Of a stretch of DNA of 64,000 nt, positions 22,726 to 60,519 are shown piece by piece; position 1 is the stretch's first letter; every line of letters starts with the position of its first letter. A program made the translations under genes and the position numbers. Source of the DNA: a virus (lineage: Duplodnaviria; Heunggongvirae; Uroviricota; Caudoviricetes); IMG/VR virus record IMGVR_UViG_3300037471_001733, positions 22,201-86,200 of that record. One strand, given 5' to 3'. Under the pieces are notes generated by a model. The model was not told where the DNA came from. It worked only from the letters and a program-made list of their open reading frames with translations, and did not search any database.

Positions 22726-22956
22726 ATGAGCACCTTACCGCCGCGCACGCCAGAGAACATCAAAGCCTTCCGCCAGCGTGCCGGCTGGACGCAGGAGAAG
22801 GCATGCGAGATGGCGTGCATCCACGACCGCCAAACCTGGCGTAAGTACGAAAACGGCACGCTCAAGATGAGCGAAGAGCGCTGGCGGCTGGCGCACTTTA
22901 TGGCCAACCTGCACCCCGACTTCGACGTTCGGCCGCGTACCAAGGCTGCGGCCTAG
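22726..22956 (+). CDS. XRE-family helix-turn-helix regulator (76 aa)
   Basis: IKAFRQRAGWTQEKACEMACIHDRQTWRKYENG...RWRLAHFMANLHPDF typical XRE/MqsA-like HTH pattern. Confidence 0.65.
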   Translation: MSTLPPRTPENIKAFRQRAGWTQEKACEMACIHDRQTWRKYENGTLKMSEERWRLAHFMANLHPDFDVRPRTKAAA

Positions 22957-43368: not shown

Positions 43369-43970
43369 AGGAGGGGCTGACCAAAGTGACGGGCGAGGTA
43401 GTCATTCAGGGCCGCACTCCAGTAGTGCGCGTCCTTTACCTTGTCCTTTTCCTGCTCACACAACTCGCAGGGCACCGGCGGCGGCGCACCGTAGGCTTCA
43501 AACGGGTGCGGGAAGACTCCCGGGCCGCGCCGGAGATTGCAGGCACGGCAGACGGGCTGGACGAAGAGCAGATGGTTGTAGTCGCGGTGCTCGTAGTCCT
43601 GGGCCTGCTCACCACAGTCGACACACTTCAGGGTATGGACCCTCGGGAGCAGGCCCTTCCTCACCGCGCAGCTCACCGTGGCGTGGGCCCTGGTCAAGAT
43701 GGCTTGCTTGATGTTGAAGCGCAGGCTGCGGCACTTGTCACATCGCTGCGGTCGCAGCCAACCGCCCATGCCCTTCAGATAGCCGGGCGCAGCAACATCG
43801 GTCGACTGAAACGTTGCCAAGCAGTCTCTGCAGCACTGATGCTTGGGCTCGCTCGCGGCCACTCGCCTCTTCGGCGGCGGGCAGTTCCCGCAGAACTTGG
43901 CCGAGTAGTGCCGGTTGATGATCTTTCCGGAGCAGCGCGGACACAGGCGGTCGTTGGGGTCGAGCCTCAT
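43365..43970 (-). CDS. HNH endonuclease with N-terminal zinc ribbons (201 aa)
   Basis: CPRCSGK..C, C..C repeats; C-terminal CVDCGEQAQDYEHRDYNHLLFVQPVCRACNLRRG HNH motif. Confidence 0.75.
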   Translation of the reverse strand: MRLDPNDRLCPRCSGKIINRHYSAKFCGNCPPPKRRVAASEPKHQCCRDCLATFQSTDVAAPGYLKGMGGWLRPQRCDKCRSLRFNIKQAILTRAHATVSCAVRKGLLPRVHTLKCVDCGEQAQDYEHRDYNHLLFVQPVCRACNLRRGPGVFPHPFEAYGAPPPVPCELCEQEKDKVKDAHYWSAALNDYLARHFGQPLL

Positions 43971-44286
43971 GACTGCCCCCTTTTGGTGGTGTTACCGCAG
44001 TGTTCAAAGACCTGAACGCGGCCTTCTACGGGGTGTGCTTTGCAAGAAACTGTTGCGGTGCAGCACGGTGCTGCTGGAGCGAAATGCTCCGTGCTTCGGT
44101 TGGTGCGGTGCGAGGGGAAATGCGCCCTCTGGATGACAGGCCCGGCGATCTTCGACCATTCGGTCGAGTCGTTGCAGATTTGTACACTTAATGGTTTAAG
44201 GACATTGGCCCATGTACATGACGCGGTGTACCTTTGCCCCATGGAAACGCAGCAATTCGTGACGCGCATCACAGGGAGCGGGTTCA

Positions 44287-44652
44287 TTACACCGGCTCCG
44301 TTGCATCTGCGGGCACAGCAGATGCGCCTTGGCCATCAGTCCAAATCTCTTTCCCGTCGTCAGGATGCAAATGGAATCGCGTGACCTTGCCGCCGGTATT
44401 CCGCTCAATCAGTACAGACAATTTCGGGTTGCTGGGACTCAGCCCGTACATGACGTTGCGGAGGCGACCGAGGGAGACACCACAGCTGGCAGCGAACTCT
44501 TTCCTAGCTTTCGCGTTGGGCAAAGCTTTGACGAAGTCGTACAGCGGGGTGATGTACAGACTGCGGTCGCGTCCATTGACCTTCGTAGCGGTGTAGGTTC
44601 CGGTGCACATAACACCGAATCCTACACTGATGAATGCATACCTAGCAAACAC
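44287..44652 (-). CDS. Cro/YdaS-like HTH regulator (start uncertain: ATG 44652 or 44610)
   Basis: ARKEFAASCGVSLGRLRNVMYG...LSVLIERNTGGKVTRFHLHPDD matches YdaS/Cro-type pattern; first gene of the leftward early operon. Confidence 0.7.
   Translation of the reverse strand: MFARYAFISVGFGVMCTGTYTATKVNGRDRSLYITPLYDFVKALPNAKARKEFAASCGVSLGRLRNVMYGLSPSNPKLSVLIERNTGGKVTRFHLHPDDGKEIWTDGQGASAVPADATEPV
44593..44626. promoter_or_regulatory. 34-bp imperfect palindrome in the cro-like/cI-like divergent region (operator candidate)
   Basis: TGTAGGTTCCGGTG-cacataa-CACCGAATCCTACA; outer TGTAGG/CCTACA, inner CGGTG/CACCG; -10-like TACACT at 44623-28 (plus) and TAGGAT (minus). Confidence 0.55.
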
Positions 44653-44685
44653 CGTTCGTGGCCTGCCGCGCAGTCCACTACTGGT

Positions 44686-45180
44686 GTGAGTGACGACCGC
44701 TTAATCCGTATCAGCAATCTGCGCAGGGTGTGCGCCGAGCGCAGGCTCAAGACCGCCGATCTACACCGGCTCCTGCCCTATGCCCGCTACACCTACTGGC
44801 GTGACGTACTGGAGGGCGACAAGCCCTTTGGAGAGAAGGCAGCGCGCAAGGTAGAAGCCAAGCTCGGCCTGCCCGACCGGTGGCTGGACACGCCGCGGGA
44901 CCCTGTTGAGTTCCGCGAGGTGTTACCCAGCGTGCCCGACGACGACGAAGACGAGCACCCAGATGAAGGGGGCCATGAATCGCACTGGCGCCACATCGCG
45001 GAGCTGTTTGCCGATATCTGCACGGAGCAGGACATCAAGATGCTGCCGTCCACCTTCTTGCTGATCGTTGATGCCGGCGTCCAGCGCGTGAATGAAGCGG
45101 CCGACAAGCGCAAGGCTTCCGAGGTTTTCAGCAAGCTTCTTCGCGTACTACAGCACGGCAAAGACCAAAATAGGGGCTAA
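44686..45180 (+). CDS. CI-type repressor-like HTH protein without recognisable S24 peptidase domain (164 aa)
   Basis: GTG 44686. RISNLRRVCAERRLKTADLHRLL HTH and FGEKAARKVEAKLGLPDRWLD signature of phage CI/C2 N-domains; divergent from cro-like gene. Confidence 0.6.
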   Translation: MSDDRLIRISNLRRVCAERRLKTADLHRLLPYARYTYWRDVLEGDKPFGEKAARKVEAKLGLPDRWLDTPRDPVEFREVLPSVPDDDEDEHPDEGGHESHWRHIAELFADICTEQDIKMLPSTFLLIVDAGVQRVNEAADKRKASEVFSKLLRVLQHGKDQNRG

Positions 45181-45281
45181 TACCTCTTTTCGTAAAACCG
45201 CACCCCCGGGCTTTGCCTTGGCGTAACGAATTACGGAACCTGTAGTTCTTGCAGTAGTCTTCACCACTATGAACCGCACGG

Positions 45282-45596
45282 GTGTTGCGGTTTGGAGCAG
45301 TGGTGGGATCGGTCTGGAACGAAGAAAAGCACGGCAGCCGCCTTCTCGTGGCCGCTAACGAGGGACATGCCCCGGCGCCGACGGAACCCCCGTCGATCAC
45401 GGCGGGGCTGCTGCAGCAGAGATTGCGCAGCAACGCTCCAATCAAGGCCATGAGCAACGCCGCGGCTGATGCCCTGGTCGGGCTGCTCGCTGGCGACACC
45501 GACGCCGCTACGGTGCGCGCGTGGATCGCTGATCTTGACGCCATGGTGCGCAAGGAGATCGTCTTGCCCTCCCAGGGGCCCGTCGGGCTCGCCTAA
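45282..45596 (+). CDS. hypothetical protein (about 104 aa) in rex-like position downstream of the repressor
   Basis: GTG-start ORF between cI-like gene and terminator 45617-45643; start uncertain. Confidence 0.4.
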   Translation: MLRFGAVVGSVWNEEKHGSRLLVAANEGHAPAPTEPPSITAGLLQQRLRSNAPIKAMSNAAADALVGLLAGDTDAATVRAWIADLDAMVRKEIVLPSQGPVGLA

Positions 45597-45616
45597 CCAA
45601 CCCCTTTAAGCAAGCA

Positions 45617-45643
45617 AGAAGCCGCCTTCGGGCGGTTTTCTTG
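45617..45643 (+). terminator. rho-independent terminator ending the repressor transcription unit
   Basis: AAGCCGCC-ttcg-GGCGGTTT stem (45619-45638) followed by TTTTCTT. Confidence 0.75.
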
Positions 45644-45645
45644 GC

Positions 45646-45711
45646 ACACCGTACTGTGTATTTTATCAGTACGTATTTACTTAGGTAATCGAAAAGCACA
45701 CCGTTTTGTGT
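45646..45711. promoter_or_regulatory. operator-like palindromes upstream of the rightward early promoter
   Basis: ACACCGTACTGTGT (45646-59) and ACACCGTTTTGTGT (45698-45711, touching the -35); GTACTG-N10-CAGTAC (45651-72); lower-GC tract. Confidence 0.5.
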
Positions 45712-45740
45712 TGACCGTCGCCGGGCTGCGGTGTTGTAAT
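45711..45740 (+). promoter_or_regulatory. candidate early promoter (PL-equivalent)
   Basis: TTGACC (45711-16), 18-nt spacer, TGTAAT (45735-40). Confidence 0.5.
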
Positions 45741-45781
45741 GACTCCAACGCGCTACACCAAAAAGCGCAATGGAGACGGCA

Positions 45782-46111
45782 ATGAACACCAGTGGCAGCG
45801 GCTACTCCTTCCAGAGTTTTCTGGGGGCGATCCCGGTAACTGTCTTCTATTGGGTAGAAGACGGTTTCGTGACGCCGATGACCTGCGATGTCGGCGGGAA
45901 GGTTGCATCGCTGCTGGATGACGGAGACCACTTCTCTCCGGTGCAGCTTCGCGTTTGGCAGCGCGCCGCCGAAGCCGACTACAGCCGCCGCACTGGCGCC
46001 GACTTCGAGCCCGATCCCACCGACTTCTTCAGCGACCCCGCAGGATGCGCCACGCGCTCGCTGGCCAGCTACTTCGACCGCGTTGATGCGGCTGCTCGGT
46101 GGGGTGCGTGA
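45782..46111 (+). CDS. hypothetical protein (109 aa)
   Basis: GGAG RBS 8 nt before ATG 45782. Confidence 0.5.
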   Translation: MNTSGSGYSFQSFLGAIPVTVFYWVEDGFVTPMTCDVGGKVASLLDDGDHFSPVQLRVWQRAAEADYSRRTGADFEPDPTDFFSDPAGCATRSLASYFDRVDAAARWGA

Positions 46112-46404
46112 TGACCACCCTCTACGCCGAATTCTCTGCCTTCGCCGCAGAGTTCAAAGCCGCCCGCCCCGAGCGCTTCGGCCGCCGTTCTGAACGCGCT
46201 AAACGCTCTGAAGCACCGTTCCGTGGCGTTCCTGCGCGCCTGGACGTTGATGCTGCGCGCGCTGAGCTGAGGGAACTGGTTGCGCGTCACGACGCGCGCT
46301 ATGAGTACAGCGACGACTACTCCGTCTGGGCTCGCGGTCAGGCTGAAGCCCAGCGGATCGCGGATCTGCGGTCGGCGATCGCCAAGGCTGGGGCAGCGGC
46401 ATGA
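46111..46404 (+). CDS. hypothetical protein (97 aa)
   Basis: TGATG junction. Confidence 0.5.
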   Translation: MTTLYAEFSAFAAEFKAARPERFGRRSERAKRSEAPFRGVPARLDVDAARAELRELVARHDARYEYSDDYSVWARGQAEAQRIADLRSAIAKAGAAA

Positions 46405-52484: not shown

Positions 52485-53357
52485 GTGCGGCGGCGTGTGC
52501 TGCCAGCCGCTCTTTCTTTTGATGGCAACTGCGAAAACCCCGGGGCTACGAGCGCGGCCAGCAGAGCCGCGCCGCCAGCCCCACCAACCAACTACAGCGA
52601 GATTCACGTGATCCACTACCACGGACTGCCGATTACGCCGGACACGGCAGCAGAGCGTGCTATTGCTGGCGGCCATGCGTTTGTGTCATTCGCGCACCCT
52701 GAGCAATTGGGTCTCGCTGCGGCTGTGGCGCAATCATTCGCCATTGATAACGGCGCGTTCTCGGCTTGGCGGGCCGGCCGTCCGGTAACGGACTGGACGC
52801 CTTTCTACGAATGGGCTGCCGCAGCCAAGCGCATCCCTGGCTGCGACTTCGCCGTCATACCTGATGTCATTGACGGCACTGAGGCTGACAACGATGCGTT
52901 GCTTGCCGAGTGGCCGCTGCCCAACTGGTTCGGGGCGCCCGTGTGGCACATGAACGAGGGCCTGGATCGCCTGGAGCGCTTGGCCACCGTCTTCCCTCGC
53001 GTGTGCATCGGCAGTTCTGGCGAGTTCGCAATGGTGGGAACGCCGACGTGGTGGGGCCAGATCGCCCGCGCCATGCGTGTTGTGTGCGACGACGATGGGC
53101 GCCCGATGTGCAGGCTCCATGGCCTGCGCATGCTGGACCCGGAAGTGTTCAAGCATCTCCCGTTTTCCAGCGCAGACAGCACGAATATCGGCCGCAACAT
53201 TGGCATCGATCAAGCTTGGCGCGGCACCTATACGCCGCCGACGAAAGAGGCGCGGGCAGCTGTCATGCGCTCGCGCATTGAGGCTGAGAACGCGCCAGCA
53301 CGCTGGGCGTTTCGCATCCCCGAGTTCCATCCTGAAGACCAAGGGAGCCTGCTGTGA
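52485..53357 (+). CDS. dpdA: DpdA-like DNA-guanine transglycosylase candidate (TGT superfamily); start uncertain (GTG 52485 or GTG 52608)
   Basis: IDNGAFSAW resembles the TGT DSGGFQ loop; ATGA-type coupling into queC; assignment rests mainly on context with queC/E/D. Confidence 0.55.
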   Translation: MRRRVLPAALSFDGNCENPGATSAASRAAPPAPPTNYSEIHVIHYHGLPITPDTAAERAIAGGHAFVSFAHPEQLGLAAAVAQSFAIDNGAFSAWRAGRPVTDWTPFYEWAAAAKRIPGCDFAVIPDVIDGTEADNDALLAEWPLPNWFGAPVWHMNEGLDRLERLATVFPRVCIGSSGEFAMVGTPTWWGQIARAMRVVCDDDGRPMCRLHGLRMLDPEVFKHLPFSSADSTNIGRNIGIDQAWRGTYTPPTKEARAAVMRSRIEAENAPARWAFRIPEFHPEDQGSLL

Positions 53358-53890
53358 GCAAAGTTATCCTGTTGTCCGGCGGCCTGGATTCCGCCCTGTG
53401 CTTGGCTCGCTACGGCGCCGACTTGGCCATTGGCTTCAATTACGGACAGCCGCATGCGATTGAGTTGGCCCATGCCGAGCGCATTGCAAGGCAGCACGGC
53501 GTGCCTTTCGAGATCCATGCGCTGCCGACCATGCCGCGCGTCAACGACGTCGTCTTCGCCGGCCGCAATGCGGTGATGCTGACGGCAGCCGCAGCCATTG
53601 CTCAGGCGCGCGGCCACGACGCGGTGTTGATCGGCTGCAACTTCTCGGATGCCACCCGGTTTCCTGACTGCCGGCCGGAATTCATTCGCAACATCAGCAA
53701 GGCGCTTGAGTCGGCATATGGCGTAAGCGTCTGCGCGCCGCTGCTGTTGTCCACCAAGACGCAGATAGTGGCAGAGGCCAAGCAACGCGGCATCACGGAC
53801 ACCTGGACCTGTTACGCGCCCACAACTGATGGTCAGCAGTGCGGCCAGTGCTACTCCTGCCAGGGCATCGCCTCAGCGAGCGCGTCATGA
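53354..53890 (+). CDS. queC: 7-cyano-7-deazaguanine (preQ0) synthase QueC, compact form (178 aa)
   Basis: MSKVILLSGGLDSALC PP-loop, FAGRNAVMLTAAA, C-terminal C..(10)..CGQCYSC zinc motif. Confidence 0.8.
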   Translation: MSKVILLSGGLDSALCLARYGADLAIGFNYGQPHAIELAHAERIARQHGVPFEIHALPTMPRVNDVVFAGRNAVMLTAAAAIAQARGHDAVLIGCNFSDATRFPDCRPEFIRNISKALESAYGVSVCAPLLLSTKTQIVAEAKQRGITDTWTCYAPTTDGQQCGQCYSCQGIASASAS

Positions 53891-54507
53891 CCTATACCGT
53901 CAAGGAGATCTTCTACACGCTGCAGGGCGAGGGCTTGCACGCCGGGCGCCCAGCGGTGTTCTGCCGCTTCGCCGGGTGCAACCTGTGGAGCGGGCGTGAG
54001 CAGGACAGGAGCAAGGCGGCATGCCGTTTCTGCGACACCGAGTTCCGCGGCGGCACGAAGTACCGCACGCCCGAGGATTTGGCTGATGCCATTGAGCAGG
54101 CGTGGGCGCCGCAGGTGGTGGCCCGACGCATGGTGGTGCTCACCGGCGGCGAGCCGGCGCTGCAGGTGGATCAGGCGCTTGTGCACTTGCTGCAGGCCCG
54201 CGGGTTCTATGTCGCCATCGAGACGAACGGCACCAAGGAACTGCCGCAGGGTCTGGATTGGGTGTGCGTGAGCCCCAAGGGCGATGAGCCGCTGCGTGTG
54301 GTGCATGGCAACGAGCTGAAGCTGGTGTACCCGCAGATGCTGGCACTGCCGCAGCGGTTTGAGGAGTTGGCCTTCGACCACTTCCTTCTGCAGCCCATGG
54401 ACGGCCCGTTCCTTGAGGCCAACACCCAGGCTGCCATCGAGTTCTGCATGGGCAACCCAAAGTGGCGGCTCTCGGTGCAGACCCACAAGTACATCGGAGT
54501 GCGCTGA
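53887..54507 (+). CDS. queE: 7-carboxy-7-deazaguanine synthase QueE (radical SAM)
   Basis: ATGA overlap; EIFYTLQGEGLHAGRPAVFCRFAGCNLWSG...CRFCDT, VLTGGEP, IETNGT, LLQPMDG...W.LS.QTHK. Confidence 0.85.
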   Translation: MTYTVKEIFYTLQGEGLHAGRPAVFCRFAGCNLWSGREQDRSKAACRFCDTEFRGGTKYRTPEDLADAIEQAWAPQVVARRMVVLTGGEPALQVDQALVHLLQARGFYVAIETNGTKELPQGLDWVCVSPKGDEPLRVVHGNELKLVYPQMLALPQRFEELAFDHFLLQPMDGPFLEANTQAAIEFCMGNPKWRLSVQTHKYIGVR

Positions 54508-54509
54508 CC

Positions 54510-54965
54510 ATGCCCACCACCATCATGAAACGCCTGGAGTTCGACGCCGGGCACCGCATCCCCAACCACGCCAGCAAGTGCCGCAACCTGCACGGCCACA
54601 GGTACGCGCTGGAAATCACGCTGGTGGGCGAGCCCATCGACGCCCCCGGCACCAGCAGCCACGGGATGCTGGAGGACTTCAGCGACGTGAAGCGCTTGGC
54701 GATGGAGCACCTCGTGGAGCCCTGGGACCACGCTTTCCTGGTGTACGAGGGCGACACGCAGGTGCTGGCGCTGCTGGCCGCGCTGCCCGGCCACAAGACC
54801 GTGGTGCTGCCGCGCGTGCCCACGGCCGAGAACCTCGTGGCGCTGGCCTTTGAAACGCTGGCGCCGATCTACACCGACCGCTTCGGCAACGGGCTGCGCC
54901 TGGAGCGCGTGCGCCTGTGGGAAACGCCGACGTGCTGGGCGGACTTCAGTTCCACAACCAACTGA
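54510..54965 (+). CDS. queD: 6-carboxy-5,6,7,8-tetrahydropterin synthase QueD
   Basis: LEFDAGHRIPNHASKCRNLHGHRY...WDHAFL...ENL pattern of PTPS/QueD. Confidence 0.8.
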   Translation: MPTTIMKRLEFDAGHRIPNHASKCRNLHGHRYALEITLVGEPIDAPGTSSHGMLEDFSDVKRLAMEHLVEPWDHAFLVYEGDTQVLALLAALPGHKTVVLPRVPTAENLVALAFETLAPIYTDRFGNGLRLERVRLWETPTCWADFSSTTN

Positions 54966-54973
54966 CGAGCACC

Positions 54974-56038
54974 ATGTTCAAAAACTTGACCTTGTTGCGC
55001 ATCAGCAGCGACTGGCTGCCCGATGCCATCGCTGCCGAGGACCAGCTGGCGCGCGAGCCCTTCACCGCCTGCGGTGCGACACAACCCGCGAGTGCTGGCT
55101 GGGTGCCGCCGCGAGGTGTGCCGCATGCGCCGCTGCTGGAGGTCATCGGCGGCCATTGGATTCTGTCGTTGATGTCAGAGCGCCGGCTGCTGCCCGGATC
55201 TGTCATCAAGGACCGCGTTGCCGAGATGACTGCCGAGTTCGAGAAGGCCAACGGCTACAAGGTCGGCAAGCGCCAGCGCAAGGAACTGGTGGCGCAGGCC
55301 GAGCAGGAGTTGCTGCCGAAGGCATTCACGAAACGCTCGCTGACCAAGGTGTGGCTCGACCCCCGCGCCCGCCTCCTAGCGGTCGACACCGGCAGCGCCA
55401 GCGCGGCCGAGTCTGTGGTTTCGATGCTGGTCAAGAGCCTGGACGGCTTTGGTGTGCAGCCTGTGACGACTTGGCTGGCGCCGGCCGGCGCGATGGCGGC
55501 TTGGATCAGCGAAGGCTGCGCGCCAAGCGGCTTCAGCCTGGACCGCGAGTGCGAGCTCAAGTCCACGGACGAGATGAAGAGCGTCGTCCGCTACGCCCGC
55601 CACTCGCTGGACAACGATGACGTGCGCCGCCACATCGCATCCGGCAAGCGCCCGACGCGCCTGGCGCTGTCCTGGGGCGACCGCGTGGCGTTCACCTTGA
55701 CCGATGGGCTTGTGCTCAAGCGCATCGAGTTTCTTGACGTCGCCATGGAAGGCCGCTCCGAAGTGGACGCGGCAGAGGCCTTTGACGCTGATGCTGCTAT
55801 CGCCTGCGGCGAGCTCAGCCGCCTGATACCGGATCTGCTGGCGGCGCTTGGTAACGAGGCTGAGCAGTCGCGCATCCACGAGGAAGAATCCAGCCCCAAG
55901 GCTGCGCTACAGGACCCCGCAGTGCCGAATTTGGACCACATCAGTACATCAGCGCTCTACTTGGCAGCGCAGGTGGAGCAGCAGATGGCTCCGATACGCG
56001 CGGCCCTGTCCGAGACTGCAGGAGCCGCCAAGGCATGA
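54974..56038 (+). CDS. rdgC: recombination-associated protein RdgC homolog (354 aa)
   Basis: MFKNLTLLRISSDWLP...AREPFTACGATQPASAGWVPP...ERRLLPGSVIKD typical RdgC N-terminus. Confidence 0.75.
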   Translation: MFKNLTLLRISSDWLPDAIAAEDQLAREPFTACGATQPASAGWVPPRGVPHAPLLEVIGGHWILSLMSERRLLPGSVIKDRVAEMTAEFEKANGYKVGKRQRKELVAQAEQELLPKAFTKRSLTKVWLDPRARLLAVDTGSASAAESVVSMLVKSLDGFGVQPVTTWLAPAGAMAAWISEGCAPSGFSLDRECELKSTDEMKSVVRYARHSLDNDDVRRHIASGKRPTRLALSWGDRVAFTLTDGLVLKRIEFLDVAMEGRSEVDAAEAFDADAAIACGELSRLIPDLLAALGNEAEQSRIHEEESSPKAALQDPAVPNLDHISTSALYLAAQVEQQMAPIRAALSETAGAAKA

Positions 56039-60078: not shown

Positions 60079-60519
60079 ATGGCCGTATCCGCGATTCAAC
60101 CGAAGCGCCCCAAAACCTCTGGCTGGGTTCCGGTGCCAGCATGGCAACAGCAGAAGCGGCACATTGAGCTGGTGTGCGACTTCCCTTCTGAGGCGTGGCT
60201 GCACCGCAGCAGCGGCATCTACGTGATCAGTTCTGTGGAAGTGGCTCACGACCCAGGGCAGCCCGACCTTGGGCCGGAATACCACCTGAGTATGAGCCGC
60301 AATGGTGGGCGCTGCACCAGCGGCGATGCGCTGTGGGTGCTGTCCTGCTTCGACGTGTCCGACGCGAAGGAAGACAACCATGTGCCCAACGGCATCGCCA
60401 GGAATTGGTGGCGCCCGGTGGCCGACAACCTCAGCGGCTACGAGTGCCCGTGCCAGGATGAAGAGCCGGCGATGCGAGAGGACAAGGGCGACTATGTTTG
60501 GCGCGGAGTGACGCGGTGA
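60079..60519 (+). CDS. hypothetical protein (146 aa)
   Basis: ORF; no motif recognised. Confidence 0.55.
   Translation: MAVSAIQPKRPKTSGWVPVPAWQQQKRHIELVCDFPSEAWLHRSSGIYVISSVEVAHDPGQPDLGPEYHLSMSRNGGRCTSGDALWVLSCFDVSDAKEDNHVPNGIARNWWRPVADNLSGYECPCQDEEPAMREDKGDYVWRGVTR

What the first reader, a model, noticed from the sequence alone, without database searches (positions are those of the whole stretch)
44287..45745. Lambda-like immunity architecture with an uncharacterised ORF in the rex position
The order of elements is:
- the Cro/YdaS-like gene (leftward);
- the palindromic operator region;
- the CI-like gene (rightward, GTG 44686, no S24 peptidase domain visible);
- a ~104-aa ORF (45282-45596);
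- a strong terminator (45617-45643);
- a lower-GC tract with two ACACCGT-N3-TGTGT palindromes;
- a TTGACC-N18-TGTAAT promoter driving the recombination/modification operon.

ACACCG words also occur twice near the cro side (44612, 44649), giving an OR/OL-like pair around the repressor unit.

The gene co-transcribed with the repressor occupies the slot where lambda carries rexAB. It is therefore a candidate lysogen-expressed exclusion gene. A repressor lacking an autocleavage domain also implies an unidentified antirepressor or other induction route.
Basis: partly seen in the sequence, partly recalled or inferred. Interest (0 to 1): 0.5.

Follow-up and report, generated by a model that had tools for sequence, protein, structure and literature searches.

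The report
Phage immunity switch with LexA box
This is the lysis/lysogeny control region of a lambda-like phage of a Burkholderiales-type host: its repressor cannot cut itself, a small unknown gene follows it, and a previously unnoticed binding site for the host DNA-damage regulator LexA next to the early promoter probably supplies the missing induction signal.

Summary
The leftward gene belongs to the YdaS/Cro family. The rightward 164-aa gene has a PaaR2-type CI DNA-binding domain, a disordered linker and an all-helical C-terminal domain. It has no S24 peptidase, although relatives with the same N-terminal domain do.

The ACACC words are real operators. ACACC/GGTGT density peaks at exactly two places in the 64 kb, OR and PL. 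Relatives carry clean ACACC-N4-GGTGT palindromes at both positions.

The small ORF most likely starts at GTG 45303 (97 aa). It is a genuine, fast-evolving gene kept in the same slot in four related loci. It has no detectable family, fold match or membrane segment, so an exclusion role is possible but unsupported.

It lies between the terminator and PL, overlaps one operator, and is conserved in relatives. It gives a concrete induction route for a non-cleavable repressor.

The closest characterised system is the PaaR2/YdaS immunity region of E. coli prophage CP-933P. Verdict: an ordinary lambdoid switch, and a new variant of a known kind. Interest is moderate.

The parts
44287..44610 (-). Cro analogue of the YdaS family (107 aa from ATG 44610)
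   Evidence: Pfam YdaS_toxin E 1.5e-4 (22 bits, below the 30-bit cutoff). All 10 of 10 syntenic homologues hit YdaS_toxin, best 3e-29. The family profile hits solved 'antirepressor protein Cro' chains 8co2 and 8c7k at 4e-15.
44591..44627 (.). 37-bp palindrome centred on the cro start codon. It is either an operator or a hairpin in the cro mRNA that buries the AGGA ribosome-binding site, with the AUG in the loop.
   Evidence: Inverted repeat I11. As RNA it folds at -23.5 kcal/mol, z -3.4. It is only partly kept in L023.
44611..44687 (.). OR region (75 bp between the cro ATG and the cI GTG). Half-sites: ACACCG 44612, ACACTG 44624, ATACCT 44638, ACACCG 44649 and GGTGT 44683. A conserved TCCACT lies 6 nt before the cI start.
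   Evidence: The same half-site spacing occurs in L023. L002 and L003 have full ACACC-N4-GGTGT palindromes at the same place.
44686..45180 (+). CI-like repressor, 164 aa. Domains: PaaR2-type helix-turn-helix N-terminal domain (residues 3-60), disordered acidic linker (74-95), three-helix C-terminal domain (94-161). No S24.
45181..45302 (+). Conserved 122-nt spacer between cI and the small ORF, with hairpins. One of them, CCGCAC..TTGCGG, lies just 5' of the ribosome-binding site.
   Evidence: Alignment of four loci and consensus fold. 7 of 22 pairs show compensatory changes, but with only four sequences.
45303..45596 (+). It has a disordered N-terminus with a conserved WNEE.HG motif, followed by a three-helix bundle.
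   Evidence: GC by codon position is 0.71/0.51/0.79. Homologues sit in the same slot in L023 (60%), L022 (43%) and L001 (31%). dN/dS is 0.33-0.80. Only 4 hits among 1.84 billion representatives. AlphaFold2 pLDDT 67.5. No fold or family match.
45616..45642 (.). Intrinsic terminator closing the repressor unit. It is a symmetric hairpin and probably works in both directions.
   Evidence: Conserved in L001, L022 and L023.
45646..45659 (.). Operator-like site A, ACACCGTACTGTGT. Its right half is the left half of the LexA box.
   Evidence: 1 mismatch to ACACC-N4-GGTGT. Kept in L023, absent in L022.
45652..45671 (.). LexA (SOS) box, TACTGTGTATTTTATCAGTA
   Evidence: It is the only TACTG-N10-CAGTA in the 64 kb, even allowing 1 mismatch. 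It is conserved in L022 and L023. An independent CTGT-N8-ACAG box lies 75 nt after the cI stop in L003. No comparable box occurs in the other loci; the only other pattern hit (L037/L038, about 3 kb from the cI match) is a poor match to the LexA consensus.
45672..45691 (.). Conserved element CGTATTTACTTAGGTAATCG between the LexA box and site B. It may be the -10 of a LexA-overlapped promoter.
   Evidence: Nearly invariant in three loci. Function inferred only.
45698..45740 (+). PL. Site B ACACCGTTTTGTGT (45698-45711) overlaps the -35 TTGACC (45711-45716). Half-site CGGTGT (45729-45734) abuts the -10 TGTAAT (45735-45740).
   Evidence: In L002 two perfect palindromes overlap the equivalent -35 and the GTGTAAT -10.
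45750..45768 (+). Conserved hairpin GCGCT-N9-AGCGC in the 5' leader of the early rightward operon
   Evidence: Conserved in L001, L022 and L023.
45782..46111 (+). First gene of the rightward early operon (109 aa from ATG 45782, ribosome-binding site GGAGA). Function unknown.
   Evidence: Homologues are the first PL gene in L001 (about 62-63%) and L002 (33-37%). No family hit.

Best explanation
The region is the immunity (lysis/lysogeny) switch of a lambda-like temperate phage. It is of the type characterised in E. coli prophage CP-933P, where PaaR2 is the CI analogue and YdaS the Cro analogue.

Inferred mechanism:
- The 164-aa repressor binds ACACC-N4-GGTGT-type operators through a PaaR2-type helix-turn-helix domain. 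It oligomerises through a three-helix C-terminal domain.
- At OR it shuts off the leftward cro/replication operon.
- At PL it shuts off the rightward recombination and DNA-modification operon.
- Its own transcript, which probably has a very short leader or none, runs rightward and ends at the terminator at 45616-45642. It probably also carries the 97-aa ORF.

Shown: the repressor has no S24 autopeptidase. It therefore cannot be induced by RecA-stimulated self-cleavage.

Inferred SOS input: the damage signal is wired in cis through a LexA box at 45652-45671, immediately after the terminator and 40 bp upstream of the PL -35. Most likely LexA represses an auxiliary rightward promoter. When LexA is cleaved, that promoter would express the first early gene(s), one of which may act as antirepressor (as in Gifsy, 186 and N15). 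Alternatively LexA co-represses the early promoter region together with CI (as in CTXphi).

The 97-aa protein is a genuine, rapidly evolving, soluble helical accessory protein in the variable 'moron' slot downstream of cI. I take it to be lysogen-expressed and to act by protein-protein interaction. Its role would be either superinfection exclusion or tuning of induction. Its function is not established.

Confidence by component: switch architecture and repressor without S24, about 0.85. ACACC operators, about 0.7. Functional LexA input, about 0.55. Any specific role for the small ORF, 0.3 or less.
For: Architecture and gene identities.

CI N-terminal domain homology: PaaR2 at E 4e-8 by profile. 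The SPC32H Rep N-terminal domain is the top Foldseek hit by probability (1.0), though at a non-significant E-value of 0.17.

The same N-terminal domain is fused to Peptidase_S24 in L005, L007, L021 and Burkholderia phage vB_E169. Here the C-terminal domain is all helical.

Operators:
- L002 has 0-1-mismatch palindromes, two at OR and two at PL. L003 has the same.
- In the window, the only intergenic hits with <=1 mismatch are 45646 and 45698.
- ACACCG enrichment has P about 1e-7, and OR and PL are the two densest windows in 64 kb.

LexA box:
- It is unique in the window.
- It is conserved in L022 and L023. An independent box sits directly after the cI homologue in L003, where it overlaps the -10 of a TTGATT-17-TTCATA promoter for a 64-aa ORF.
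- A terminator followed by a LexA box is also the layout in Gifsy prophages (PMC3121763).
- The non-coding PL region is 79% identical across three loci, whereas the small ORF protein is only 43-60% identical.

Small ORF:
- Coding statistics, an open frame in all four relatives, and dN/dS below 1.
- The slot holds other cargo elsewhere. L003 and L005 have a membrane protein there. CP-933P has paaA2-parE2. L002 has nothing (PMC8630535).
Against: - No binding, transcript or phenotype data exist.
- OR in the window has only half-sites, not clean palindromes.
- No canonical sigma-70 promoter overlaps the LexA box. The best candidates are TTGGCA-17-TATCAG, which is window-specific, and TTTTCT-17-TATTTT. 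The box lies about 80-95 bp upstream of the PL start, too far for simple occlusion of PL.
- L002 and L001 lack the box. L001 has a TnpB insertion and an apparent deletion there.
- No known antirepressor family and no integrase were found in the 64 kb.
- The first PL gene also occurs in relatives without a LexA box.
- The 122-nt structured spacer could hold a separate promoter or an attenuator for the small ORF.
- L022 and L023 are fairly close relatives, so conservation among them is weak evidence of function.
Confidence: 0.6

Rival explanations
1. The small ORF is a Rex-like exclusion or defence gene, co-transcribed with cI from PRM in the lysogen, that blocks superinfecting phages.
For: - It is in the same strand and slot as lambda rexAB, with one terminator after it.
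- The slot is a cargo hot-spot in relatives, holding a membrane protein in L003 and L005 and a toxin-antitoxin pair in CP-933P.
- Its fast evolution, dN/dS up to 0.8, is typical of arms-race genes.
Against: - No hit in PADLOC, Pfam, PHROGs or NCBIfam.
- No fold match.
- No membrane segment or enzymatic motif. It is a single 97-aa soluble helical protein.
- Co-transcription is not shown.
Confidence: 0.3
2. The small ORF is part of the switch itself. It would be a repressor-associated modulator of induction, like 434 Hex, which is made from the PRM mRNA and stabilises lysogeny. For example, it could bind the CI C-terminal domain or buffer an antirepressor.
For: - It is found only next to the helical-C-terminal-domain CI subclade (window, L023, L022, L001). 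Its divergence tracks that of CI.
- It co-occurs with the terminator plus LexA box arrangement.
- Precedent: Hex (PMC3564112).
- A disordered N-terminus with a conserved short motif plus a helical bundle suits a binding protein.
Against: - It is absent from the Azohydromonas relatives, which have the same CI architecture.
- No interaction data exist.
- Its phylogenetic restriction may simply reflect recent ancestry.
Confidence: 0.25
3. The LexA-like box is not an SOS input for induction. It would be a chance or relic site, or it would drive a short leftward or antisense transcript.
For: - No canonical promoter overlaps the box on the rightward strand.
- A leftward TTACCT-17-TAAAAT candidate exists, by inspection.
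- The box is far from the PL start.
- L001 and L002 lack it.
Against: - It is a perfect TACTG-N10-CAGTA with an AT-rich spacer in a 63% GC genome, and unique in 64 kb.
- It is kept in L022 and L023 although flanking bases differ.
- An independent canonical box lies after the cI homologue in L003.
- No comparable box occurs in the rest of the roughly 289 kb of related loci; the one other pattern hit (L037/L038) is a poor LexA match far from the cI gene.
- A leftward transcript would run straight into the hairpin.
Confidence: 0.2
4. The 97-aa frame is not a gene, and the cI-to-terminator interval is an untranslated 3' region.
For: There are very few database relatives. No start-codon ATG is present.
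Against: - The codon-position GC pattern is typical of genes in this window.
- The frame is open in four diverged loci, while other frames carry stops. dN/dS is 0.33-0.8.
- A conserved N-terminal motif follows directly after a GGAG/GGAGG site.
Confidence: 0.05

Closest known systems
CP-933P (E. coli O157:H7) immunity region: paaR2-paaA2-parE2 divergent from ydaS-ydaT (PMC8630535)
   Same: - The CI analogue has a homologous N-terminal DNA-binding domain (38% identity over 50 aa; profile E 4e-8) and no S24 motif.
- A divergent YdaS-family Cro analogue is present.
- The intergenic OR is short (97 bp there, 75 bp here).
- Similar operators occur again at a PL on the far side.
- Cargo gene(s) sit co-oriented downstream of the repressor in the rex slot.
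   Different: - The C-terminal domains are not detectably related. PaaR2 is 123 aa and this repressor is 164 aa with a long disordered linker.
- The cargo is one unrelated 97-aa ORF, not a PaaA2/ParE2 toxin-antitoxin pair.
- No recognisable YdaT.
- The operator sequence differs.
- A LexA box lies beside PL here. None is described for CP-933P, which does not respond to mitomycin C.
Phage lambda cI-rexA-rexB / OR-OL
   Same: - The order is cro, OR, cI, cargo, terminator, OL/PL, recombination genes.
- Operators lie on both sides of the repressor unit.
   Different: - No S24 autocleavage domain.
- The cargo is not related to RexA/RexB and is not a membrane protein.
- Cro is of the YdaS type.
Phage 434 cI-hex (PMC3564112)
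   Same: A second small protein is encoded on the repressor (PRM) transcript in the lysogen.
   Different: - Hex overlaps the repressor frame and acts on RecA-stimulated autocleavage, which cannot apply here.
- No sequence relation was tested or seen.
LexA-controlled antirepressor induction (Gifsy-1/2/3, coliphages 186 and N15; PMC3121763; SPC32H Rep-Ant, PDB 5d50)
   Same: - The repressor is non-cleavable.
- A LexA box is preceded by a terminator-like palindrome.
- The SPC32H Rep N-terminal domain is the top structural match by probability (1.0; E 0.17, not significant), aligned over 71 columns at rmsd 2.1 A.
   Different: - In those phages the LexA-controlled unit lies outside the immunity region. 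Here the box is inside it, between the repressor terminator and PL, and overlaps a repressor operator.
- No recognisable antirepressor gene was found.
CTXphi RstR plus LexA at the rstA/rstR promoters (as summarised in PMC3121763; otherwise from my own knowledge)
   Same: A repressor without a cleavage domain and LexA bind neighbouring sites in one control region, so LexA cleavage feeds directly into induction.
   Different: - CTXphi is a filamentous phage with an unrelated repressor.
- The geometry of the sites relative to the promoters differs.

Membership tests
Lambda-type CI repressor (HTH N-terminal domain plus S24 LexA-like autopeptidase) | N-terminal Cro/CI-type helix-turn-helix DNA-binding domain | tested here: met
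   The profile hits the PaaR2 'Phage repressor protein CI' N-terminal domain at E 4e-8. Foldseek matches the Rep (5d50) and TP901-1 CI N-terminal domains. phrog_5736 and phrog_12107 also match.
Lambda-type CI repressor (HTH N-terminal domain plus S24 LexA-like autopeptidase) | C-terminal Peptidase_S24 domain with a Ser-Lys dyad | tested here: not met
   No Pfam hit at E<=0.1. AlphaFold2 gives three helices and no beta structure. Positive controls with the same N-terminal domain score S24 at 1e-15 to 1e-27.
Lambda-type CI repressor (HTH N-terminal domain plus S24 LexA-like autopeptidase) | Divergent from cro, with shared operators between them and a second operator set at PL | tested here: met
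   Binding itself is not testable here.
PaaR2/YdaS (CP-933P-type) immunity region | Repressor homologous to PaaR2 over its full length | tested here: not met
   BLASTP and hhalign align only residues about 20-71, which is the N-terminal domain. The C-terminal domains are unrelated.
PaaR2/YdaS (CP-933P-type) immunity region | Divergent YdaS-family Cro analogue | tested here: met
   YdaS_toxin E 1.5e-4 for the window protein, below the gathering score. All 10 of 10 syntenic homologues match. PDB 8co2 and 8c7k hit at 4e-15.
PaaR2/YdaS (CP-933P-type) immunity region | PaaA2-ParE2 toxin-antitoxin pair downstream of the repressor | tested here: not met
   No alignment between the small ORF and PaaA2. 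There is a single gene and no ParE-like ORF before the terminator.
PaaR2/YdaS (CP-933P-type) immunity region | Leaderless repressor mRNA | not testable with these tools
   Only suggestive: a conserved TCCACT/TCTACT lies 6 nt before the start codon in five loci, and there is no Shine-Dalgarno sequence.
Rex-like lysogen-expressed exclusion gene | Located between cI and OL/PL, co-oriented with cI | tested here: met
   The same slot is used in L001, L022 and L023.
Rex-like lysogen-expressed exclusion gene | Homology to RexA/RexB or to any catalogued defence protein | tested here: not met
   PADLOC, Pfam, PHROGs and NCBIfam give no hits. Foldseek against PDB gives nothing below E=1.
Rex-like lysogen-expressed exclusion gene | Transcribed with cI in the lysogen, and excludes other phages | not testable with these tools
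   Needs RNA-seq and plating assays.
LexA-controlled induction of a non-cleavable repressor (Gifsy/186/N15 type) | LexA box in the phage genome, preceded by a terminator | tested here: met
   TACTGTGTATTTTATCAGTA lies 10 nt after the terminator. It is unique in the window and conserved in relatives. LexA binding has not been tested.
LexA-controlled induction of a non-cleavable repressor (Gifsy/186/N15 type) | An antirepressor gene downstream of the LexA-controlled promoter | tested here: inconclusive
   No antirepressor family was found in the window. The downstream ORFs at 45782-46111 and 46099-46404 are small and of unknown function.

The most novel reading that the evidence does not exclude
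In this phage lineage LexA is built into the immunity region itself. Its box overlaps one repressor operator (site A) and sits between two operators 52 bp apart at PL. Host LexA and a non-cleavable CI would then jointly hold the early promoter region. The fast-evolving 97-aa protein made with CI would be a new kind of switch component, for example a partner of the novel helical C-terminal domain that sets the induction threshold. That would be a tailed-phage counterpart of the CTXphi/GIL01 logic, using two previously undescribed protein modules.
Probability: 0.15. Interest if true: 0.6.

Novelty: new variant of a known kind. Interest (0 to 1): 0.35.

Why it matters
Lambdoid switches whose repressors lack the self-cleaving domain are common, but their induction routes are known for only a few enterobacterial phages. 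This region offers a compact, testable case from an uncultured Burkholderiales-type phage. It combines a defined operator motif, a LexA box embedded between the repressor unit and the early promoter, a repressor oligomerisation domain with no known relatives, and an orphan protein in the slot where phages keep lysogen-expressed accessory genes.

If the LexA box and the small protein prove functional, this would extend the known ways prophages read the SOS signal. It might also yield a new exclusion or regulatory protein. If they do not, it remains a routine annotation of an immunity region.

Tried and rejected
**Searches that found nothing**
- DNA and protein searches of the phage collection with the region, CI and the small ORF gave no match.
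- Rfam at gathering threshold and a tRNA scan of the window found nothing.
- Exact-sequence contig look-ups for P0001, P0008 and P0010 failed. The 120-kb near-identical JGI contig could therefore not be read.
- The metagenome scan returned only N-terminal-domain relatives and no further full-length homologues.
- The first PL gene has only itself in the indexed protein database.
- PADLOC and NCBIfam were empty for the small ORF, CI and the early ORFs.

**Structure**
It was run with a 4-sequence alignment and gave moderate confidence.
- The Foldseek search with that model returned only generic helical hits with E>1.

**Ideas considered and rejected**
- Small ORF as a PaaA2-like antitoxin: no similarity and no toxin partner.
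- Hidden S24 domain in CI: excluded.
- Clean 14-bp palindromes at the window's OR: not found at <=2 mismatches. Only half-sites are present.
- Sigma-70 consensus scan: it called no promoter in 43900-46300. All promoter assignments here therefore rest on conservation and position.
- The two 2-mismatch operator-like hits at 44184 and 44216 are within chance expectation.
Full report
**Setting**

The window is about 63% GC and has no tRNA or Rfam hits. It is a tailed-phage genome segment.
- Terminase, portal, protease/capsid and connector genes run leftward over 1-14 kb.
- A long leftward early operon holds a DnaC-like loader, a Holliday-junction resolvase and other genes, and ends at about 44.6 kb.
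- A rightward operon from about 45.8 kb encodes RecT/Bet, an exonuclease, DpdA-like plus QueC/E/D, RdgC-like, Mom-like and MazG-like proteins.

Nothing similar is in the GenBank phage collection. Relatives of the repressor come from Azohydromonas, Rhodoferax, Variovorax and metagenomes. No integrase and no known antirepressor family were detected anywhere in the 64 kb.

**Checking the observation**

*Cro analogue.* The leftward gene most plausibly starts at ATG 44610. It belongs to the YdaS/Cro family.
- It scores YdaS_toxin at E 1.5e-4, which is below Pfam's cutoff.
- All ten syntenic homologues I collected hit that family, best 3e-29.
- Their profile finds solved 'antirepressor protein Cro' chains at 4e-15.

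*Palindrome.* It is real, with 15-nt arms, and is centred on the cro ATG. As RNA it would fold at -23.5 kcal/mol (z -3.4), with the ribosome-binding site in the stem. It could therefore act at the DNA or the RNA level.

*Repressor start.* The repressor start, GTG 44686, matches the ATG or GTG used in L001, L002 and L003.

*Terminator and promoter.* The terminator, the 37% GC tract and TTGACC-N18-TGTAAT are at the stated places. The promoter is non-canonical: the consensus scan calls no promoter in the region. It is conserved in L022 and L023.

*Corrections.*
- The repeats are ACACCGT-N2-TGTGT, that is, 14-bp ACACC-N4-GTGT sites.
- The small ORF starts at GTG 45303.

**The repressor**

Only nine homologues exist among 5.8 billion clustered proteins. 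The alignment shows three parts:
- a highly conserved N-terminal domain of about 70 aa (..YTYWRDLL..KPFGEKAARKVE..GLPDRWLDTP);
- a variable acidic linker;
- a C-terminal domain of about 60 aa.

A profile of the family matches the solved N-terminal domain of PaaR2, deposited as 'Phage repressor protein CI', at E 4e-8. The AlphaFold2 model has pLDDT 76. It shows helices at 3-60, disorder at 74-95 and three helices at 94-161. Its best structural match is the N-terminal domain of the non-cleavable Rep of Salmonella phage SPC32H, but no Foldseek match reaches significance (best E 0.17).

Pfam finds no S24 domain. The same N-terminal domain is fused to Peptidase_S24 in Rhodoferax loci L005 and L007, in L021 and in Burkholderia phage vB_E169. 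The domain is therefore a bona fide CI DNA-binding module, and the absence of S24 here is real. Full-length PaaR2 (123 aa, taken from phage Evi) aligns only over the N-terminal domain. The helical C-terminal domain is thus a different, uncharacterised module.

**Operators**

In Azohydromonas aeria (L002) the palindrome ACACC-N4-GGTGT occurs with 0-1 mismatch exactly four times. Two copies lie between cro and cI. Two lie 25 bp apart over the -35 and the GTGTAAT -10 of the downstream promoter. A. lata (L003) shows the same pattern.

In the window, the only intergenic hits with <=1 mismatch are 45646 and 45698. Site 45698 overlaps the PL -35, and a CGGTGT half-site abuts the -10.

At OR the window has half-sites only (44612, 44624, 44638, 44649 and 44683). 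L023 has the same spacing.

Statistically there are six ACACCG in 239 bp against 0.21 expected. OR and PL are the two richest 150-bp windows for ACACC/GGTGT in the 64 kb.

**The small ORF**

Evidence that it is a gene:
- The frame has gene-like codon-position GC of 0.71/0.51/0.79.
- Homologues occupy the same slot in L023 (60%), L022 (43%) and L001 (31%). In each case the order is cI, a spacer of about 120 nt, the ORF, then a terminator.
- The frame stays open in all four relatives while other frames collect stops. dN/dS is 0.33-0.80, against 0.21-0.29 for cI.

It is nearly an orphan. There is one hit in the indexed search and four in an exhaustive HMMER scan of 1.84 billion representatives.

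The model shows a disordered N-terminus carrying the invariant W-N-E..H-G motif, then a three-helix bundle. No fold, Pfam, PHROG, NCBIfam or PADLOC match was found, and there is no similarity to PaaA2.

The slot is variable in relatives:
- empty in L002;
- a LexA-controlled 64-aa ORF plus a reverse-strand membrane protein in L003;
- that same membrane protein directly after the S24-type cI in L005;
- a toxin-antitoxin pair in CP-933P (PMC8630535).

This is the behaviour of a 'moron' slot. The 434 Hex protein, made from the PRM mRNA and acting on induction (PMC3564112), shows that a regulatory role is equally precedented.

Co-transcription remains unproven. The spacer is conserved and may fold into hairpins, one of them just upstream of the ribosome-binding site.

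**The LexA box**

This is a perfect TACTG-N10-CAGTA SOS box of the E. coli and beta-proteobacterial type (the CTGT-N8-ACAG motif, from established knowledge).
- It is the only such site in the window, even allowing one mismatch.
- It has an AT-rich spacer in a GC-rich genome.
- It lies 10 nt after the terminator.
- It is conserved in L022 and L023, although neighbouring bases differ.
- An independent canonical box, CACTGTATGTTCATACAGCA, lies 75 nt after the cI homologue of A. lata. There it overlaps the -10 of a TTGATT-17-TTCATA promoter for a 64-aa ORF.
- In about 289 kb of loci carrying other versions of this repressor there is no comparable site near the gene.
- L001 has a TnpB insertion and only a remnant of the box.

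In Gifsy prophages the LexA box that controls the antirepressor unit is likewise preceded by a terminator-like palindrome (PMC3121763).

I therefore think the SOS signal enters through LexA. There are two possible routes:
- a LexA-repressed promoter reading into the first early genes, with the 109-aa and 101-aa ORFs of unknown function as candidate antirepressors;
- co-repression with CI, since the box overlaps operator site A and sits between two operators 52 bp apart.

Weak points of this reading:
- no convincing sigma-70 promoter overlaps the box;
- the box is too far upstream of the PL start for simple occlusion;
- no antirepressor is recognisable.

**Comparison with known systems and verdict**

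The closest characterised system is the CP-933P immunity region (PMC8630535). It has PaaR2 (a CI analogue with no peptidase motif and a leaderless mRNA), a divergent YdaS (Cro analogue), operators at OR and at a distal PL, and cargo genes behind the repressor.

This locus shares the N-terminal-domain homology, the YdaS-type Cro and the layout. It differs in the repressor C-terminal domain, the cargo gene, the operator sequence and the embedded LexA box.

It is not a member of the S24-type CI family, because that feature was tested and not met. It is not a Rex homologue.

It is an ordinary lambdoid switch in overall logic and a new variant in its parts. The exclusion-gene proposal is unsupported but not excluded. 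The induction route now has a specific, testable candidate.

Noticed in passing
window 43971-44286 (and L001:2690-3020): This is a 316-bp stretch just downstream of the cro-like gene. Its coding statistics are poor (GC3 0.64, GC1 0.50). It is nevertheless conserved in blocks with L001, including a perfect hairpin GCAGCAC-C-GTGCTGC and motifs such as CCGAAGCACGG and CGTTCAGG. It could be a non-coding RNA, a nut/terminator-like element, or a PRE-like region as described between ydaS and ydaT in CP-933P. Rfam finds nothing.
   Followed up: partly
window 45750-45768: A hairpin GCGCT-N9-AGCGC lies in the leader of the early rightward operon, between the -10 and the ribosome-binding site. It is conserved in L001, L022 and L023. 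Function unknown.
   Followed up: partly
window 44591-44627: As RNA, the palindrome over the cro start folds into a strong hairpin (-23.5 kcal/mol, z -3.4). The ribosome-binding site is in the stem and the AUG in the loop. It may give translational control of cro rather than, or as well as, acting as an operator.
   Followed up: partly
window 45181-45302: The spacer between cI and the small ORF is conserved in four loci, with possible hairpins. One of them, CCGCAC..TTGCGG followed by TTTGG, lies just 5' of the ribosome-binding site. It may be an attenuator or a processing site. Four sequences are too few to judge covariation.
   Followed up: partly
L001:4318-5424: An IS605-type TnpB/OrfB gene is inserted exactly between the small ORF and the terminator/PL region of the related locus. 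That locus also lacks the LexA box; only TACTGT|ACGTAAT remains.
   Followed up: no
L003:6556-7378 and L005:6760-7164: In Azohydromonas lata the slot after cI holds a LexA-box promoter driving a 64-aa ORF, which is a candidate small antirepressor. It also holds a reverse-strand 172-aa membrane/zinc-ribbon protein. A homologue of that membrane protein (33% identity) sits directly after an S24-type cI in a Rhodoferax locus.
   Followed up: partly
window 52485-56038: The early rightward operon carries a DpdA-like transglycosylase with QueC, QueE and QueD homologues, which suggests 7-deazaguanine DNA modification. It also carries a Mom-like protein and a MazG-like pyrophosphatase.
   Followed up: no
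window 22726-22956 (+) and 60079-60519 (+): Two further small helix-turn-helix ORFs lie outside the immunity region. The 76-aa one gives weak RstR/MqsA-like and phrog_3 repressor hits. The 146-aa one gives a weak phrog_2328 hit. Their roles are unknown.
   Followed up: no
window 1-64000: PHROG scans of the called genes found no integrase and no Ant/KilAC/Bro-type antirepressor in the window. A few structural-region ORFs were not included in the scans. The prophage ends, if any, are not in view.
   Followed up: partly
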